Source: Gemmatimonadales bacterium (lineage in GTDB: Bacteria > Gemmatimonadota > Gemmatimonadetes > Palauibacterales > Palauibacteraceae). Taken from it: a stretch of DNA of 64,000 bases. A model generated the notes under the pieces. That model was not told the DNA's origin. It ran no database searches and saw only the letters and a program-made list of their open reading frames with translations. Below are positions 11,372 through 15,343 of this stretch, piece by piece. The first letter of the stretch is position 1. Each line of letters begins with the position of its first letter. The stretch is taken from the NCBI GenBank assembly GCA_050114915.1, contig JASFRN010000001.1:5020-69019 (forward strand). Direction: 5' to 3'. The position numbers and the translations under genes were made by a program.

Positions 11372-11713
11372 GTGGCGCGCTACGGCGTCAGCGGATGGGT
11401 GCACGGCTTCGCCGGGACGGCGTTTCCGTGGGGCACGCTCGCGGTGAACGTCGCCGGCGCCTTCGTGCTCGGGTTCACGCTGCGCGTCCTCCAGGCGTCG
11501 ATCGCCCCGCCGGAGATCCGCGGGTTCCTCACGGTCGGTCTCCTCGGCGCGTTCACGACTTTCAGCACGTTCACCTACGAGGCGGTCGCCCTGATCCAGG
11601 ACGGCGAATGGACCCGCGCCTCGCTCTACCTCGGCGGCAGCGTCGTCGCCGGGGTCGCGGCGGTGGTCGCGGGGATCGGCCTCGCGGCCGTCCTCTTCCA
11701 GGCGAGAGGCTGA
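11372..11713 (+). CDS. crcB: fluoride ion channel CrcB/FluC (start probably upstream, see findings)
   Basis: GFAGTAFPWGTLAVNVAGAFVLGF...GLLGAFTTFSTF are CrcB motifs. The in-frame upstream peptide [16 protein letters not shown] is the canonical CrcB N-terminus but has no ATG/GTG/TTG. A CTG at 11327 overlaps the sdhB stop. Confidence 0.7.
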   Translation: MARYGVSGWVHGFAGTAFPWGTLAVNVAGAFVLGFTLRVLQASIAPPEIRGFLTVGLLGAFTTFSTFTYEAVALIQDGEWTRASLYLGGSVVAGVAAVVAGIGLAAVLFQARG

Positions 11714-11717
11714 CGAG

Positions 11718-12089
11718 ATGGAACGAGGGATCGAAGGCGAGCGGACCCTGATGCGGGTGTTCATCGGCGAATCGGACCGTTGCCGGTCCGGGCCGCACGC
11801 CGGGAAGCCCCTCTACGAGGCGATTCTCCTCACCCTGCGGGAGGCCGGGATCGCCGGCGCCACGGTCCTGCGCGGGATCGCCGGCTTCGGCGCCTCCGCC
11901 GTGATCCACACCGAGAAGATCCTCCGCCTCTCTCTCGACCTCCCGGTGATCATCGAGGCCGTGGACGAGGAGGAGCGGATCCAGGACGTCCTCCCGATGC
12001 TCGACGGGCTGATCGGCGGCGGACTCATCACGCTGGAGCGGGCCCGCGTCGTCCTCTACCGACCCGCGGACGACGCCGACCGCGGATGA
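11718..12089 (+). CDS. DUF190 (PII-like) protein, the usual CrcB partner
   Basis: MERGIEGERTLMRVFIGESDR...GGLITLERARVV. It sits 4 nt after crcB. The DUF190-crcB pairing is an established association. Confidence 0.75.
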   Translation: MERGIEGERTLMRVFIGESDRCRSGPHAGKPLYEAILLTLREAGIAGATVLRGIAGFGASAVIHTEKILRLSLDLPVIIEAVDEEERIQDVLPMLDGLIGGGLITLERARVVLYRPADDADRG

Positions 12090-12748
12090 AGCCGCGCGGT
12101 TTCAGCGACGAGCAGGTCGACCGCCTCGGTGTCCTGTGGGGCGAGATGCTCGCGCATCCGCTGCTGCGCGGCATGCGGGACGGCAGCCTCGACGGTGAGG
12201 CGCTCGTCCGCTGGATGCGGCAGGACTACCTGTTCGTATCGGCGGCGATCCCGTTCCTCGCGGCGCTGATCCCCCGCGGGCCCGCCAGCCACTGGCAGCC
12301 GCTGGCCCGCGCCGTCGGCGCGCTGGAGCGCGAGATCCGGCTGTTCGAGGAGCAGGCGGAGGGGCTCGGCGTGGCCCTCAAGGGGGCGGTGCCCTCGGAG
12401 ACGGTGAACGCGTTCAACCAGTTCCTGCTGGCCACCGCCCAGCAGTCGTCCTACGAAGAGGCGTTCGCCGTGCTCTACGCGGCGCACCGGGCGACGCACG
12501 AGTCGTTCAAGTACGTGAAGGCCGGTCTCGCGCCGGACTCGCCGGTCGGGCCGTTCGTCAAGAACTGGGCGGGTCGCGAGTTCGGCTTCTACCTCGGCTA
12601 CCTGGGCACCGAGCTCGACCGGCTGGCCGAGGAAGCGAGCCCGGAGACCCTGGCGGGCATGGCCGACGTGTTCGAACGGGTCGTACGGTACGAAATCGCC
12701 TTCTTCGACGCCGTGCTCAATGGCCAGGACTGGCCGCCGGCGGACTGA
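12086..12748 (+). CDS. tenA: TenA/THI-4 family protein (thiaminase II / aminopyrimidine aminohydrolase-like)
   Basis: The ATG at 12086 overlaps the DUF190 stop as ATGA. MKPRGFSDEQVDRLGVLWGEMLAHPLLRGMRDGSL... is TenA-like. Confidence 0.7.
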   Translation: MKPRGFSDEQVDRLGVLWGEMLAHPLLRGMRDGSLDGEALVRWMRQDYLFVSAAIPFLAALIPRGPASHWQPLARAVGALEREIRLFEEQAEGLGVALKGAVPSETVNAFNQFLLATAQQSSYEEAFAVLYAAHRATHESFKYVKAGLAPDSPVGPFVKNWAGREFGFYLGYLGTELDRLAEEASPETLAGMADVFERVVRYEIAFFDAVLNGQDWPPAD

Positions 12749-13229
12749 CCTCGGATCCGGACCGCGGCCGTTCGAGCAGGATCTGCACCCACACCCCGCC
12801 GCGCTCGCCGATCGCCTCGTCCGTGAAGGCGCAGTCGTCGAGGTTCAGGCGGTGCGGCGGGCTGTCGCGCCACAGCTCGAACGCCGCGGACGCCCCGGCC
12901 TGGGTCAACGCGATGTTCTCTGCCGTCTTCCGGGCGCGGATCCCCGCTTCGCGGAGCTCGTCGAACACGTCGTGACCGTCGGGCGTCACGTGATCGAAGT
13001 AACGGCGCTCGATCATGTCCGCGGCGCGGTGCTCGGCCACGGCGGCCGCGGGCGCGTACCAGTCGAGCGGCGGGCAGCCGTAGTTGCGGCGGTGCCGGTT
13101 GACGAGCTCGTGCAGGCGGGCTTCGGCCCCGGTCGGGGCCGCATCCTGGGCGGGAGACGTCGCCGGAAGGAAGAGGAGCAGCAGGACCGCCGCCAGCCTT
13201 TCGCCGGAACCTCTCCCTCGTCGTCGCAT
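12717..13229 (-). CDS. secreted CAP/SCP/PR1-like domain protein
   Basis: The ATG at 13229 opens a signal peptide, MRRRGRGSGERLAAVLLLLFLPATSPAQD. CAP motifs follow (HELVNRHR...GENIA...WRDSPPHRLNL). It overlaps the tenA 3' end convergently. Confidence 0.65.
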   Translation of the reverse strand: MRRRGRGSGERLAAVLLLLFLPATSPAQDAAPTGAEARLHELVNRHRRNYGCPPLDWYAPAAAVAEHRAADMIERRYFDHVTPDGHDVFDELREAGIRARKTAENIALTQAGASAAFELWRDSPPHRLNLDDCAFTDEAIGERGGVWVQILLERPRSGSEVSPPAASPGH

Positions 13230-13334
13230 GTTCCCCCAGCGAGTAACTATATTCCCGGAGTCGGCCGCACGGGCCGGCTCTGCAAGACCACCCCGGAGCG
13301 GGTCGCGGGATCCGCACAGTCCGAAGGAGACCGG

Positions 13335-13931
13335 ATGACAGCGCGCCGTATCTTCGCCGCACTCCTCGTAGCCGCCGGGCTGGCGGGCGCTCCGTCCGCG
13401 GCGGCCCAGGTGGCCGACGTGGCCCCCGAGCCGCTGGCCGTGGGGACGAAGGCGCCGGACTTCACCCTGGTGGGTGCCGACGCCGACGGGGTGCTCTCCG
13501 ATTCGATCCGACCCACCGACTTTCGGGGACATACCCTGGTGATCGCGTTCTTTTTTCGGGCGCGATCCAGCGGGTGAACGGTGCAAATGGAAGCGTACCG
13601 TGATCAGTACGCCAGCATCTTCAACAGCGGGAAAGACGTAACGCTTCTCGCGATCAGCACCGACGATCCCGAGACGCTGCACGACTGGGCGGACGACGCC
13701 GATTTTCCGTTCGTGTTCGCCAGCGATCCCGGGGCGAAGGTCGGACAGCGCTACGGCGCGTTCCGGCAGCTCGCCGATGGGAAGTTCCAGGACAACCGGA
13801 CGGTGTTCGTAATCGATCCGGACGGCGTTATCCGCTACGTGGCGGCTCCGTTCCGGGAGATCGACCCGACGGCGTACCGGCAGCTCGAGGCCGCGATCGA
13901 CGACGTGGCGGCGCAGCGGACGCCGGAGTAG
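13335..13931 (+). CDS. secreted PrxQ/Bcp-type peroxiredoxin with in-frame TGA (13575..13577) at the peroxidatic Cys position, candidate selenoprotein
   Basis: GAAGGAGA RBS then ATG at 13335. Signal peptide MTARRIFAALLVAAGLAGAPSAAAQ. The two track ORFs (ending 13577 and starting 13581) are in the same frame, separated only by TGA. Joined, they read FFFRARSSG-U-TVQMEAYRD...LLAISTDD, which aligns with E. coli Bcp YFYPKAMTPG-C-TVQACGLRD...VLGISTDK. Confidence 0.65.
13593..13612 (+). promoter_or_regulatory. SECIS-like hairpin downstream of the in-frame UGA (GCGUAC-CGUGAUCA-GUACGC)
   Basis: A perfect 6-bp stem with an 8-nt loop begins 15 nt after the TGA. This is the expected position for a bacterial SECIS element. 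Confidence 0.35.
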
Positions 13932-13934
13932 CCC

Positions 13935-14480
13935 TCAGGACGGTTCTTCGAGGACCCTCGCGAGCGCCCCGAGCACGTCCTGCTCGGTGTCGACCCCCGT
14001 GTACGCGACCTTCCCGGCCGCGTCGAGGATGACGATGTAGGACGTCGTCGGGGCCATGAACCGCCGGGTCGCTTCACCGTCGGCGTCCCACAGCATCGGG
14101 TAGGGAAGGGGATGCATCGCGAGGTGCTCCCGAACCCGCTTCGGGTCCTGGCCGACCGCGACCGCGATCCCGTAGAAGTCGACGCGGTCGCCGAAGCGCT
14201 TCTTCGCCTCGGCCATCTGCGGCTCGAGCGCCTTGCACTTGGGGCACCAGGTCGCCCAGAACTCCAGGACGACGGGGCGCTTCCCGAACGAATTCGCCAG
14301 GTTCACGGATCCGCCGTCGATCGCCTCGAGGGTGAGCGGGGCCGGCGTGGCGCCACGTTCGATGCCGATTCGGGTCTGCGTGAGCGCGGTCCGCGGGAAC
14401 GCGGCGCCGAGCAGAAACAGCCCGACGATCGCCCATCGATGGTTTGCCCATCCGTGCGTCGCGCGGTGTCGAATCCCCAC
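13935..14480 (-). CDS. TlpA/ResA-like thiol:disulfide oxidoreductase (thioredoxin fold, membrane anchored)
   Basis: EFWATWCPKCK active site. The GTG start at 14480 is preceded by GGGGAG and lies 20 nt after the ccdA stop. No in-frame ATG fits. The 444-aa track ORF extends upstream as junk overlapping ccdA. Confidence 0.65.
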   Translation of the reverse strand: MGIRHRATHGWANHRWAIVGLFLLGAAFPRTALTQTRIGIERGATPAPLTLEAIDGGSVNLANSFGKRPVVLEFWATWCPKCKALEPQMAEAKKRFGDRVDFYGIAVAVGQDPKRVREHLAMHPLPYPMLWDADGEATRRFMAPTTSYIVILDAAGKVAYTGVDTEQDVLGALARVLEEPS

Positions 14481-14500: not shown

Positions 14501-15208
14501 TCAGCGGACCTGCCAGGCTCCGTAGAAGTAGTACGCCGCCATCGCCAGCAGGATCAGCCCGCCCAGCCATTTGATCCGGACGGTCCACGGTCCCGGCTTC
14601 GGCAGCCGTCCAGCGAGGCCGCTGACCAGCCCCACGGCGGCGAGCAGCGCCGTCATTCCCAACGAAAACACGAACAGGTAGAGAAAGCCGAGGGTTCCGC
14701 TGCCCGTCGTCGAAACGAACGTCAGCACCGCCGCGAACGCGGGCGCCCCGCAGGGCGCCGCGACGAGGCCCGAGCTCGCGCCGAGGAGGAAGACGGCCGG
14801 GACCGATCCCCCCTTCAGCCCGGCGACGCGGTCGAGCAGGCGACGCGGGACGGGGACCGGCAGGACGTCGAGCATCGCGAGCCCGAACCCGGTGAGCAGG
14901 ACCGCGATCAGCCCCCGACTCCACCAGCTGGCCGAGATGGTGCCGAACAGGGAGCCCGTGAGGCCGGCGATCAGGCCGGCCGTGGCATACAGGGCGGCCA
15001 GGCCGGTCACGTAGGCCGCCGTCAGCGCGGCCACCCGCCCGCGGCTGGCGTTGGCGCCGCTGCTCCCGCCGATGATCCCCGCCGTGATCGGGATCATCGG
15101 GTACACGCACGGCGTCAGGCTCGTGAGCACCCCCCCGGCGAACAGGAGCACGACCGCGAGGAGCGGATCGTGCTGCAGCGCGTCGCCGAGGCTCTGGAAG
15201 TCGGGCAT
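14501..15208 (-). CDS. ccdA: cytochrome c-type biogenesis / thiol-disulfide transporter CcdA (DsbD transmembrane domain)
   Basis: MPDFQSLGD...LTPCVYPMIP...APCGAPAF conserved Cys pair within a polytopic membrane protein. The start is the ATG at 15208 inside the 14501..15271 ORF. Confidence 0.75.
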   Translation of the reverse strand: MPDFQSLGDALQHDPLLAVVLLFAGGVLTSLTPCVYPMIPITAGIIGGSSGANASRGRVAALTAAYVTGLAALYATAGLIAGLTGSLFGTISASWWSRGLIAVLLTGFGLAMLDVLPVPVPRRLLDRVAGLKGGSVPAVFLLGASSGLVAAPCGAPAFAAVLTFVSTTGSGTLGFLYLFVFSLGMTALLAAVGLVSGLAGRLPKPGPWTVRIKWLGGLILLAMAAYYFYGAWQVR

Positions 15209-15343
15209 GGTGGGAACAACGTGCGCGGAGCGGGGGTGGTTCCGGGAGGGGGCGGGCCGGTCGGCCCACATCGGCCCTGCGACGTCGGCCTCCCGTTCCT
15301 ATCTTGTCGAACTGCCCGCTCCCTCAGCCCCGGGGGTCAAGAG

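What the first reader, a model, noticed from the sequence alone, without database searches (positions are those of the whole stretch)
13335..13931. Secreted PrxQ/Bcp peroxiredoxin with an in-frame TGA at the peroxidatic cysteine position: candidate selenoprotein with a SECIS-like hairpin
Seen in the sequence:
- Two adjacent track ORFs (12720..13577 and 13581..13931) share one frame and are separated only by TGA at 13575..13577.
- A clean start context (GAAGGAGA-N5-ATG at 13335) opens a signal peptide.
- Reading through the TGA gives ...HTLVIAFFFRARSSG-U-TVQMEAYRDQYASIFNSGKDVTLLAISTDD...
- That aligns residue-for-residue with the E. coli Bcp active-site block YFYPKAMTPG-C-TVQACGLRD...LGISTDK (established family knowledge). 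The UGA therefore falls exactly on the catalytic Cys.
- A perfect 6-bp hairpin, GCGUAC-CGUGAUCA-GUACGC, lies 15 nt downstream of the UGA (13593..13612). Bacterial SECIS elements sit in that position.

The gene sits in a redox island with ccdA and a tlpA-like gene. Selenocysteine peroxiredoxins are rare in bacteria, and a secreted PrxQ-type Sec enzyme would be unusual. The window contains no selA, selB, selD or tRNA-Sec.
Basis: partly seen in the sequence, partly recalled or inferred. Interest (0 to 1): 0.8.

Follow-up and report, generated by a model that had tools for sequence, protein, structure and literature searches.

The report
Exported selenocysteine peroxiredoxin gene of Gemmatimonadota
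The "broken" peroxiredoxin gene is almost certainly a real selenoprotein gene: the same in-frame UGA and the RNA hairpin after it recur in about 150 relatives from one soil phylum, so it is a solid new member of a known selenoprotein family, not a new kind of system.

Summary
One frame runs from ATG 13335 to TAG 13931, interrupted only by TGA 13575-13577. The read-through product is an AhpC/TSA peroxiredoxin, and the UGA sits on the peroxidatic Cys position.

Comparative data decide the case:
- 155 of 161 homologous loci carry TGA at this codon, with conserved coding sequence on both sides. These are 79 of 80 Gemmatimonadota species genomes, 75 of 80 metagenome contigs and the window.
- The remaining 6 loci carry Cys codons there.
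- The hairpin 13593-13612 is identical at the nucleotide level in all 149 distinct Sec-form sequences, including synonymous sites and rare codons. A seventh base pair covaries. The hairpin meets the published bacterial SECIS constraints.
- All members have signal peptides and no resolving Cys.
- About three quarters of all loci (122 of 161), nearly all with enough flanking sequence, face a tlpA-like/ccdA pair.

Selenocysteine peroxiredoxins with a T/SxxU motif have been a known bacterial selenoprotein family since 2001-2005. This is therefore a new, mis-annotated clade of that family. It has two twists: it is exported, and the canonical active-site Pro is replaced by Phe/Tyr.

I could not check for selA, selB, selC or selD in the same genome. 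selA does occur in related Gemmatimonadales contigs.

The parts
13323..13330 (+). Shine-Dalgarno-like GAAGGAGA, 4 nt upstream of the ATG
   Evidence: Read directly from the sequence. GGAG/AGGA-type motifs are common upstream of the chosen starts in homologues.
13335..13931 (+). Complete peroxiredoxin gene. It encodes a 198-residue precursor with Sec at residue 81 and ends at TAG 13929-13931.
   Evidence: Translation. Pfam AhpC-TSA, E = 6.5e-25, and Redoxin, E = 5.9e-18. PDB BCP and AhpE hits align Cys with the UGA. Public gene callers split it into an 80-aa and a 114-aa ORF.
13335..13406 (+). Predicted Sec-type signal peptide, MTARRIFAALLVAAGLAGAPSAAA|Q, with an AxA cleavage motif
   Evidence: Read from the sequence. 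Across 149 family members, 87% have a basic n-region, 98% a hydrophobic core and 84% an AxA-like site, while only 9% have RR. No dedicated signal-peptide predictor was available.
13575..13577 (+). UGA read as selenocysteine (residue 81), at the peroxidatic position of the S78-x-x-U81 motif
   Evidence: TGA sits at the homologous codon in 155 of 161 loci and TGC/TGT in the other 6. It aligns with the peroxidatic Cys of solved BCP and AhpE structures.
13584..13612 (+). Zone of frozen synonymous sites, CAA AUG GAA GCG UAC CGU GAU CAG UAC GC. This is the RNA-constrained stretch that contains the SECIS.
   Evidence: Codon counts in 149 distinct Sec forms: CAA 135, GCG 149, TAC 149, CGT 143, GAT 144, CAG 148, TAC 149. 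Elsewhere in the same genes CGT is 7%, GAT 31% and CAA 9% of their codon families.
13593..13612 (+). SECIS hairpin: 6-bp stem GCGUAC/GUACGC and 8-nt loop CGUGAUCA, with G then U at loop positions 2-3. The loop starts 21 nt after the UGA.
   Evidence: RNAalifold consensus. Six invariant pairs plus a covarying seventh pair. Energies are -7.0 to -8.0 kcal/mol for the hairpin and -12.0 for the 45-nt region. It fits the bSECIS model constraints quoted in PMC13188914.
13935..14480 (-). Convergent tlpA-like gene: a membrane-anchored or exported thioredoxin-fold protein with a WCPKC motif. It is the proposed reductant of the peroxiredoxin.
   Evidence: Pfam Redoxin, AhpC-TSA and Thioredoxin. GTG start at 14480. 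It occupies the same position and orientation in 122 of 161 loci.
14501..15271 (-). ccdA (DsbD_TM family), a transmembrane electron conduit upstream of tlpA-like. The start is ATG 15271 or 15208.
   Evidence: Pfam DsbD_TM, E = 1.7e-39. Start candidates. Conserved next to the tlpA-like gene in 103 of 161 loci.

Best explanation
13335-13931 is one intact gene for an exported selenocysteine peroxiredoxin of the BCP/PrxQ-AhpE type.

1. Translation starts at ATG 13335.
2. When the ribosome reaches UGA 13575, SelB carrying Sec-tRNA(Sec) is held by the hairpin at 13593-13612, with loop CGUGAUCA. Selenocysteine is inserted as residue 81 instead of termination.
3. The 24-residue signal peptide sends the protein through the Sec translocon to the periplasm.
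4. There the selenolate of U81, helped by Ser78 and Arg155, reduces peroxides to a selenenic acid.
5. The protein has no second Cys. It must therefore be recycled by an external dithiol, most likely the TlpA-like thioredoxin encoded tail-to-tail with it.
6. The TlpA-like protein would in turn receive electrons across the membrane from cytoplasmic thioredoxin through CcdA.

What the comparative data show: the UGA, the reading frame on both sides and the hairpin letters are under strong purifying selection, and the export signal and neighbourhood are conserved. What is inferred: Sec (rather than another residue) at the UGA, SelB binding, peroxidase activity and the TlpA/CcdA relay.
For: - The UGA sits at the peroxidatic Cys position of an AhpC/TSA domain.
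- TGA is at the same codon in 79 of 80 Gemmatimonadota species genomes and 75 of 80 metagenome contigs. The two halves are always in one frame and conserved at protein level.
- Cys orthologues exist, which gives the Sec/Cys pair criterion.
- In protein databases the close homologues are all truncated at the same point.
- Six codons over the hairpin are nucleotide-invariant in 149 distinct sequences and include rare CGT, GAT and CAA. The expected frequency of that codon string is 0.6%.
- The seventh pair covaries: CG 67, UA 40, GC 14, so 121 of 149 are paired against 69 +/- 3.7 in shuffles. The covariation score is 0.098 against 0.028 shuffled and at most 0.063 when the partners are slid.
- The hairpin meets the bSECIS constraints on loop size, stem length, G in the first two loop positions, spacing of 16-37 nt and energy.
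- TGA is the ordinary stop in this window, used by 30 of 40 long ORFs, so there is no global recoding.
- Signal peptides are found family-wide, and 160 of 161 members have no Cys downstream of the Sec/Cys codon.
- The tlpA-like/ccdA pair is conserved.
- The Thr/Ser-x-x-U motif and Arg155 are invariant.
- A model of the Cys orthologue matches BCP and AhpE structures, with TM-scores of 0.81-0.87.
- selA is present in Gemmatimonadales contigs.
Against: - No selA, selB, selD or tRNA-Sec lies in the window or in the 80 Sec-form genome loci. Their presence in this genome is untested.
- The only locus with selA on the same contig, L029, carries the Cys form.
- The hairpin alone is unremarkable (z = -1.0).
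- Cys forms keep 5-6 of its 6 pairs because the peptide AYRDQYA is codon-palindromic.
- In the window the seventh pair is an A.C mismatch, and the bare hairpin energy (-7.0) is marginal against the -7.5 threshold.
- There is no Rfam match.
- The canonical active-site Pro is missing, so peroxidase chemistry is not guaranteed.
- The tlpA-like/ccdA pair is convergent with the gene rather than co-transcribed, so the functional link rests on conserved adjacency only.
Confidence: 0.85

Rival explanations
1. The gene is a pseudogene or carries a sequencing error. A Cys codon (TGC/TGT) was mutated or misread as TGA in this assembly, and no full-length protein is made.
For: Gene callers and NCBI annotate only the 114-aa C-terminal fragment. 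No Sec machinery is seen in the window.
Against: The same TGA occurs in 155 of 161 independent loci from many assemblies and sequencing projects. Both halves stay in frame and conserved, with no frameshifts or extra stops. The sequence after the TGA carries RNA-level constraint that is absent from Cys forms.
Confidence: 0.01
2. The UGA is recoded, but not to selenocysteine. Either there is SECIS-independent read-through by a near-cognate tRNA (Trp or Cys), or there is termination followed by re-initiation at GTG 13581 that yields two polypeptides.
For: Sec machinery is not demonstrated in the same genome. GTG and ATG start codons lie 1 and 3 codons after the UGA. Computation cannot identify the inserted residue.
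Against: The position is the catalytic Cys of the fold, and orthologues use Cys there. That is the classic Sec signature, and Trp would inactivate the enzyme. Splitting at this point would cut the thioredoxin fold through its active site and leave the catalytic half without its signal peptide. The frozen hairpin with G-U in the loop at the canonical distance fits SelB recruitment. selA exists in the order.
Confidence: 0.05
3. It is a genuine exported selenoprotein but not a peroxidase. It would act as a periplasmic selenol:disulfide oxidoreductase in the TlpA/CcdA network, for example in cytochrome c or copper-centre maturation or in methionine-sulfoxide or disulfide repair. The AhpC/TSA fold would be used as in ResA/TlpA-type proteins.
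For: The canonical Pro of PxxxTxxC is replaced by Phe/Tyr in 153 of 155 Sec forms. The constant partners are TlpA-like and CcdA, which are classically linked to cytochrome c and Cu maturation. Pfam gives a weak SCO1-SenC similarity (E = 0.002, below cutoff), and PDB TlpA is a weak hit.
Against: There is no CxxC/UxxC motif. The Thr/Ser at -3 and the catalytic Arg155 are invariant. The best sequence and fold matches are peroxiredoxins (BCP, AhpE, Prx3), not TlpA or ResA.
Confidence: 0.12

Closest known systems
Sec-containing peroxiredoxin family (Prx, PF00578/COG1225, T/SxxU motif) of the prokaryotic selenoproteome (PMC1088965, PMC1794560, PMC5029168, PMC13188914)
   Same: AhpC/TSA domain. Sec replaces the peroxidatic Cys in a T/S-x-x-U motif. 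Cys-containing homologues are widespread. The SECIS hairpin lies in the coding region just after the UGA.
   Different: The clade is specific to Gemmatimonadota. It has (F/Y)xxxTxxU instead of the PxxxTxxU described for the family. It has an N-terminal signal peptide and a fixed association with tlpA-like/ccdA. I found no mention of Gemmatimonadota/-etes selenoproteins in the paper library.
PrxU of Eubacterium acidaminophilum (NCBIfam NF040737, the experimentally verified Sec-peroxiredoxin; Sohling et al. 2001, cited in PMC13188914)
   Same: A peroxiredoxin with Sec at the peroxidatic position.
   Different: It scores only 53 bits against a cutoff of 270, so it belongs to a different subfamily. 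PrxU is a protein of an anaerobic Firmicute; that it is cytoplasmic is my own recollection and was not checked here. This one is an exported protein in a mostly aerobic soil phylum.
BCP/PrxQ (E. coli Bcp family NF006960; archaeal BCP structures 2cx3, 3hjp, 3drn) and M. tuberculosis AhpE (1xvw, 1xxu, 4x0x)
   Same: These are the best sequence and fold matches. The active-site block G-C/U-T-V-Q is shared. Like AhpE, it has no resolving Cys (1-Cys type).
   Different: It is below the NCBIfam equivalog cutoff (62 against 140). It has Sec instead of Cys, lacks the Cys at CP+5 found in E. coli Bcp, has lost the Pro, and is exported.
Bacterial SECIS consensus model (bSECISearch; constraints quoted in PMC13188914, Fig. 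2)
   Same: 8-nt loop (3-9 allowed). 6-7 bp stem (4-16 allowed). G at loop position 2 followed by U. 21 nt between the UGA and the loop (16-37 allowed). MFE of -8 to -12 kcal/mol.
   Different: The sequence is unusually rigid: the stem and 6 of 8 loop letters are invariant over 149 sequences. The loop does not fit the optional N1-G-[G|U]-N-N2 closing-pair sub-pattern. There is no Rfam family match.
CcdA/TlpA-type periplasmic reducing pathways (DsbD_TM family plus membrane-anchored thioredoxins)
   Same: A CcdA-like membrane protein followed by a TlpA-like CxxC thioredoxin-fold protein, encoded next to a periplasmic thiol- or selenol-dependent client.
   Different: The client here is a selenoperoxiredoxin rather than apocytochrome c, ScoI or MsrP-type substrates. 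The link is inferred from adjacency only.

Membership tests
Bacterial selenoprotein gene (Sec-encoding UGA) | In-frame UGA conserved among orthologues, with coding conservation on both sides | tested here: met
   155 of 161 loci have TGA at the same codon. The flanks are conserved and always in frame.
Bacterial selenoprotein gene (Sec-encoding UGA) | Cys-containing homologues that align Cys with the UGA (Sec/Cys pair) | tested here: met
   Full-length homologues have ...ARTSG-C-TVQM. There are 7 distinct Cys-form DNA sequences and 65 Cys-form proteins among the top 120 hits.
Bacterial selenoprotein gene (Sec-encoding UGA) | bSECIS: 3-9 nt apical loop, 4-16 bp stem, G in the first two loop positions, 16-37 nt from the UGA, MFE <= -7.5 kcal/mol (PMC13188914) | tested here: met
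   Loop of 8 nt, CGUGAUCA. Stem of 6 bp, plus a covarying seventh pair in 81% of relatives. Spacing of 21 nt. Energy is -7.0 for the bare hairpin, -8.0 with flanking bases and -12.0 for the 45-nt region. The bare hairpin energy in this window is marginal.
Bacterial selenoprotein gene (Sec-encoding UGA) | selA, selB, selC (tRNA-Sec) and selD present in the same genome | not testable with these tools
   None is in the window or in the 80 genome loci. selA was found in related Gemmatimonadales contigs L029, L081, L174 and L175. selB, selC and selD were not found in the sequence held.
Bacterial selenoprotein gene (Sec-encoding UGA) | Selenium physically incorporated (75Se labelling or MS) | not testable with these tools
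   Experimental.
Peroxiredoxin (PF00578 AhpC/TSA; Prx selenoprotein family, T/SxxU) | AhpC/TSA domain above the Pfam gathering score | tested here: met
   87.9 bits against a cutoff of 26, covering profile positions 1-124 of 124 (with U written as C).
Peroxiredoxin (PF00578 AhpC/TSA; Prx selenoprotein family, T/SxxU) | T/S-x-x-C/U active-site motif | tested here: met
   S78-S-G-U81 in the window. Across Sec forms the -3 residue is T in 150 and S in 5 of 155.
Peroxiredoxin (PF00578 AhpC/TSA; Prx selenoprotein family, T/SxxU) | Pro of the PxxxTxxC/U motif | tested here: not met
   F74 in the window. Sec forms have F 87, Y 66, P 2. Cys forms have P in 6 of 6 DNA loci and in 59 of 65 proteins.
Peroxiredoxin (PF00578 AhpC/TSA; Prx selenoprotein family, T/SxxU) | Conserved catalytic Arg | tested here: met
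   R155 (DNRTVFVID) is invariant in alignments A1 and A2. It aligns with the R of BCP ...AKRAVFIV....
Peroxiredoxin (PF00578 AhpC/TSA; Prx selenoprotein family, T/SxxU) | Peroxiredoxin (thioredoxin-like) fold | tested here: met
   Tested by proxy. An AF2 model of the Cys orthologue P0006 (53% identical) has pLDDT 84.7. Foldseek matches BCP, AhpE and Prx3 with E of about 1e-12 and target-normalised TM-scores up to 0.87. The window protein itself could not be submitted.
PrxU (NCBIfam NF040737) | Score at or above the equivalog cutoff | tested here: not met
   53.1 bits against a cutoff of 270.
E. coli-type Bcp / PrxQ (NCBIfam NF006960; atypical 2-Cys) | Equivalog score, and a resolving Cys five residues after the peroxidatic Cys | tested here: not met
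   61.9 bits against a cutoff of 140. The CP+5 residue is Glu86, and 160 of 161 family members have no Cys anywhere downstream of the Sec/Cys codon.
Rfam RNA families (including SECIS models) | Covariance-model match | tested here: not met
   No hit at gathering score in the window, and none at E <= 10 in 13500-13700.

The most novel reading that the evidence does not exclude
Gemmatimonadota, a major and largely aerobic soil phylum, run a dedicated extracytoplasmic selenium-based peroxide defence. It would consist of an exported one-selenol peroxiredoxin whose active site has been re-tuned for selenium (Pro to Phe/Tyr switching together with Cys to Sec, apparently more than once). It would be recycled by its own TlpA-like/CcdA electron relay and decoded through an unusually rigid, phylum-wide SECIS. 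Selenium supply would then directly set the envelope oxidative-stress tolerance of this phylum.
Probability: 0.4. Interest if true: 0.55.

Novelty: new member of a known kind. Interest (0 to 1): 0.4.

Why it matters
- **Annotation.** It corrects a systematic error. Public records list this gene as a 114-aa "redoxin domain-containing protein" plus an orphan 80-aa ORF, in hundreds of Gemmatimonadota genomes and metagenome contigs.
- **Selenium use.** It shows that selenocysteine use is the rule rather than the exception for this enzyme in an abundant soil phylum for which I found no selenoprotein reports.
- **Test material.** It offers a clean natural data set: 149 distinct sequences with one invariant SECIS, and Sec/Cys switches that track a Pro to Phe/Tyr change in the active site. 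This could be used to test how SelB recognises its hairpin and how a peroxiredoxin pocket adapts to selenium.
- **Limits.** It does not reveal a new mechanism.

Tried and rejected
- **Rfam.** A search of the window at gathering score and of 13500-13700 at E <= 10 found nothing.
- **Single-sequence folding.** The statistics are not significant.
- **tRNA-Sec.** ARAGORN found none in the window or in any fetched locus.
- **Sec machinery by tblastn.** I used E. coli SelA, SelB and SelD recalled from memory, so sensitivity may be reduced, against all held DNA. Only selA was found, in L029, L081, L162 and L174-L177. One weak SelB-like GTPase hit in L079 was dismissed.
- **Linking selA to a Sec-form carrier.** I looked up contigs of SelA hits. 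None shared an assembly with a Sec-form locus, and no selB or selD lay beside selA.
- **Other selenoprotein genes in the window.** A scan for in-frame-TGA genes gave only off-frame junk.
- **Other genes with the same loop and stem after a TGA.** A scan of 1.58 Mb found none.
- **Global UGA reassignment.** Rejected: TGA ends 30 of 40 long ORFs.
- **Tat export.** Rejected: RR is present in only 9% of family signal peptides.
- **Split selA as pseudogenes.** In nanopore contigs the breaks lie at different positions, and Illumina-derived sequences are continuous. Assembly error is therefore the likely cause.
- **Promoter/terminator scan.** Uninformative.
Full report
**1. Observation**

The window is 70% G+C. 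It matches at 100% a protein that NCBI names as coming from a Gemmatimonadales MAG.

- One reading frame runs from ATG 13335 to TAG 13929-13931. The ATG is preceded by GAAGGAGA at 13323-13330.
- The frame contains a single stop, TGA 13575-13577.
- Read-through gives a 198-residue protein with U at residue 81, in ...VIAFFFRARSSG-U-TVQMEAYRDQY....
- The hairpin is exactly as described: GCGUAC (13593-13598), loop CGUGAUCA, GUACGC (13607-13612). It starts 15 nt after the UGA.
- As a single sequence the fold is not exceptional: z = -1.0, and 30 of 200 shuffles fold as well.
- Rfam has no match, and the window has no tRNA gene.

**2. What the protein is**

- With U written as C, the protein matches Pfam AhpC-TSA over the whole profile (87.9 bits, cutoff 26) and Redoxin.
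- Its best solved relatives are archaeal BCP peroxiredoxins and M. tuberculosis AhpE. In those alignments the peroxidatic Cys falls on the UGA.
- NCBIfam places it nearest to Bcp (62 bits, cutoff 140). It is far from the verified selenoprotein PrxU (53 bits, cutoff 270). It is therefore a separate subfamily.
- The window protein itself could not be submitted for structure prediction. An AlphaFold model of a Cys orthologue (pLDDT 84.7) matches BCP, AhpE and Prx3 structures, with target-normalised TM-scores up to 0.87.

**3. Is the UGA real and conserved?**

- In the protein database, the homologues at 62-84% identity are all truncated to about 110-130 residues and start at the Met just after the UGA. 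Full-length homologues at 45-56% identity read ...ARTSG-C-TVQM....
- A scan of one genome per GTDB species returned 80 loci, all Gemmatimonadota. Of these, 79 have TGA at the homologous codon and one (L029) has TGC.
- A metagenome scan seeded with the Cys forms still returned 75 TGA forms among its best 80.
- In all 155 TGA forms the two halves stay in one frame and are conserved as protein, with ordinary synonymous variation in the flanks.
- TGA is the usual stop codon in the window, ending 30 of 40 long ORFs, so the code is not reassigned.
- A sequencing error or a pseudogene is therefore excluded.

**4. Is the hairpin a SECIS?**

In 149 distinct Sec-form sequences, the six codons A-Y-R-D-Q-Y after the UGA are frozen at the nucleotide level:

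| Codon | Count of 149 | Share of its codon family elsewhere in these genes |
|---|---|---|
| GCG | 149 | 51% |
| TAC | 149 | 80% |
| CGT | 143 | 7% |
| GAT | 144 | 31% |
| CAG | 148 | 91% |
| TAC | 149 | 80% |
| CAA (three codons after the UGA) | 135 | 9% |

- The chance of the whole six-codon string given family codon usage is about 0.6% per sequence.
- RNAalifold finds only this helix.
- Its six pairs never vary. A seventh pair joins two third-codon positions and covaries: CG 67, UA 40, GC 14, with 28 mismatches. That is 121 of 149 paired, against 69 +/- 3.7 in shuffles.
- The pair-counting tool gives a covariation score of 0.098, against 0.028 for shuffles and at most 0.063 for slid partners.
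- The loop is CGUGAUCA in 138 of 149 sequences.
- The published bacterial SECIS model requires a 3-9 nt loop, a 4-16 bp stem, a G (usually followed by G or U) in the first two loop positions, 16-37 nt between UGA and loop, and MFE <= -7.5 kcal/mol (PMC13188914). Here the loop is 8 nt, the stem 6(+1) bp, G-U sits at loop positions 2-3 and the spacing is 21 nt. The energy is -7.0 to -8.0 for the hairpin and -12.0 for the 45-nt region.

One caveat applies. The peptide AYRDQYA is codon-palindromic, and the seven distinct Cys-form sequences still form 5-6 of the 6 pairs. They do, however, use CAG, TAT, CGC, GAC and GCC freely. The diagnostic signal is the frozen synonymous and loop letters, not the mere presence of a hairpin. 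In the window the seventh pair is an A.C mismatch.

**5. Export, mechanism type and partners**

- Among 149 members with a complete N-terminus, 87% have a basic n-region, 98% a hydrophobic core and 84% an AxA-like site. Only 9% have RR, so the signal is Sec-type, not Tat. In the window the predicted cleavage is AAA|Q after residue 24.
- 160 of 161 members have no Cys at all after the Sec/Cys codon. This is a one-selenol enzyme that needs an outside reductant.
- Immediately downstream and convergent lie a TlpA-like thioredoxin-fold protein (WCPKC; 13935-14480) and CcdA (DsbD_TM; 14501-15271).
- The same arrangement is found in 122 (tlpA-like) and 103 (ccdA) of 161 loci, which is nearly all loci with enough flank.
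- One checked Cys-form paralogue (P0098) sits in an unrelated context.
- The most economical model is a periplasmic chain: cytoplasmic thioredoxin to CcdA to TlpA-like protein to Sec-peroxiredoxin to peroxide. Only the adjacency is shown. The electron flow is inferred.

**6. A deviation from the family**

- The review describes a conserved PxxxTxxU motif for Sec-peroxiredoxins.
- Here the residue at -7 is Phe (87) or Tyr (66) in 153 of 155 Sec forms. It is Pro in all 6 Cys-form loci with that site and in 59 of 65 Cys-form proteins.
- In a rough NJ tree, two Cys/Pro forms (L029 and P0067) nest inside Sec/Phe-Tyr clades. This hints at coupled switches. The tree has no support values, and this is only suggestive.
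- Thr/Ser at -3 and Arg155 are invariant.

**7. Sec machinery**

- The window and the 80 genome loci hold no tRNA-Sec and no SelA, SelB or SelD match.
- selA is present in Gemmatimonadales contigs. L029 has its C-terminus 9.5 kb from the Cys-form prx. It is also present in L081, L162 and L174-L177, and NCBI names several such proteins.
- This is the main gap. Even so, purifying selection on the UGA and SECIS across about 150 lineages is hard to explain without functional decoding.

**8. Comparison with the known**

- Sec-peroxiredoxins with a T/SxxU motif (COG1225/PF00578) are a long-established bacterial selenoprotein family. PrxU was characterised in 2001. There are 43 sequences in the Sargasso Sea set (PMC1088965), 78 organisms in PMC5029168, and the family is listed as experimentally verified in PMC13188914.
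- Remnant SECIS-like hairpins after Sec-to-Cys reversion are also a known phenomenon (PMC1794560).
- Full-text searches found no report of Gemmatimonadota/-etes selenoproteins.

**9. Verdict**

The gene is a real, mis-annotated selenoprotein gene. It is a new clade of a known family, with some unusual features: it is exported, its active-site Pro is lost, its SECIS is rigid, and it has a fixed TlpA-like/CcdA neighbour. It is not a new kind of system.

Noticed in passing
window 13554-13556 (Phe74); family-wide in L001-L161: The canonical active-site Pro of PxxxTxxC is Phe or Tyr in 153 of 155 Sec forms. It is Pro in 6 of 6 Cys-form loci and in 59 of 65 Cys-form proteins. Two Cys/Pro forms (L029, P0067) nest inside Sec clades in a rough NJ tree, which suggests that Sec/Cys and Phe-Tyr/Pro switch together.
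   Followed up: partly
L082 and L083 (metagenome contigs Ga0105248_10079524, Ga0190274_10006835), 18-38 nt after the TGC codon: These Cys-form genes keep a perfect 6-bp hairpin, GCGUAC-CGUGACCA-GUACGC, with a loop variant that also occurs in four Sec forms. It may be a remnant SECIS after Sec-to-Cys reversion, or a pre-adaptation imposed by the AYRDQYA peptide.
   Followed up: partly
L081 9256-10615; L162 9198-10558; L176 7549-8864; L177 9287-10633; L174 9700-10816: selA is split by frameshifts in every Gemmatimonadales contig where the whole gene is covered. In the four nanopore-derived contigs (ERZ250395xx) the breaks are at different positions, and in two of them (L162, L177) other genes are also split, so assembly error is likely. 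In L174 (WNGA01004905.1), about 60 residues are missing and there is a frameshift while the neighbouring genes are intact. That could be a real selA pseudogene.
   Followed up: partly
L029 10001-10552 and 20023-20547(-): This is the only genome locus with a Cys codon (TGC) at the peroxidatic position. It still has the tlpA-like/ccdA neighbours, and it has selA about 9.5 kb away on the same contig (synteny: selA, HAD hydrolase, purN, purH, TMEM260-like, tRNA-Ser). A lineage with at least part of the Sec machinery nevertheless uses Cys here.
   Followed up: partly
window 13335-13577 and 13587-13931; public records: Public gene calls (NCBI, JGI, Logan) split the gene into an 80-aa ORF with no Pfam hit and a 114-aa "redoxin domain-containing protein". 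The same truncation affects essentially all close homologues in the 5.8-billion-protein collection.
   Followed up: yes
window 11372-11713 (+) and 11718-12089 (+): A CrcB fluoride-channel gene (Pfam E = 5e-26) is directly followed by a DUF190 gene (E = 2e-35), a pairing typical of fluoride-resistance loci. No fluoride riboswitch reached the Rfam gathering score in the window.
   Followed up: no
window 12717-13229 (-): A secreted CAP/SCP-family protein (Pfam CAP, E = 1e-11, with its own signal-peptide-like N-terminus) is divergently transcribed from the peroxiredoxin gene. It is conserved only in the closest relatives (L001-L003), so it is probably unrelated.
   Followed up: partly
L013, L014, L018, L020, L023, L026 (N-termini of the Sec-Prx): Some family members have a Cys in the signal-peptide c-region (...APSACLGQN / ...SPAACLSQN). 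This resembles a lipobox, so a subset may be lipid-anchored rather than soluble periplasmic proteins.
   Followed up: no
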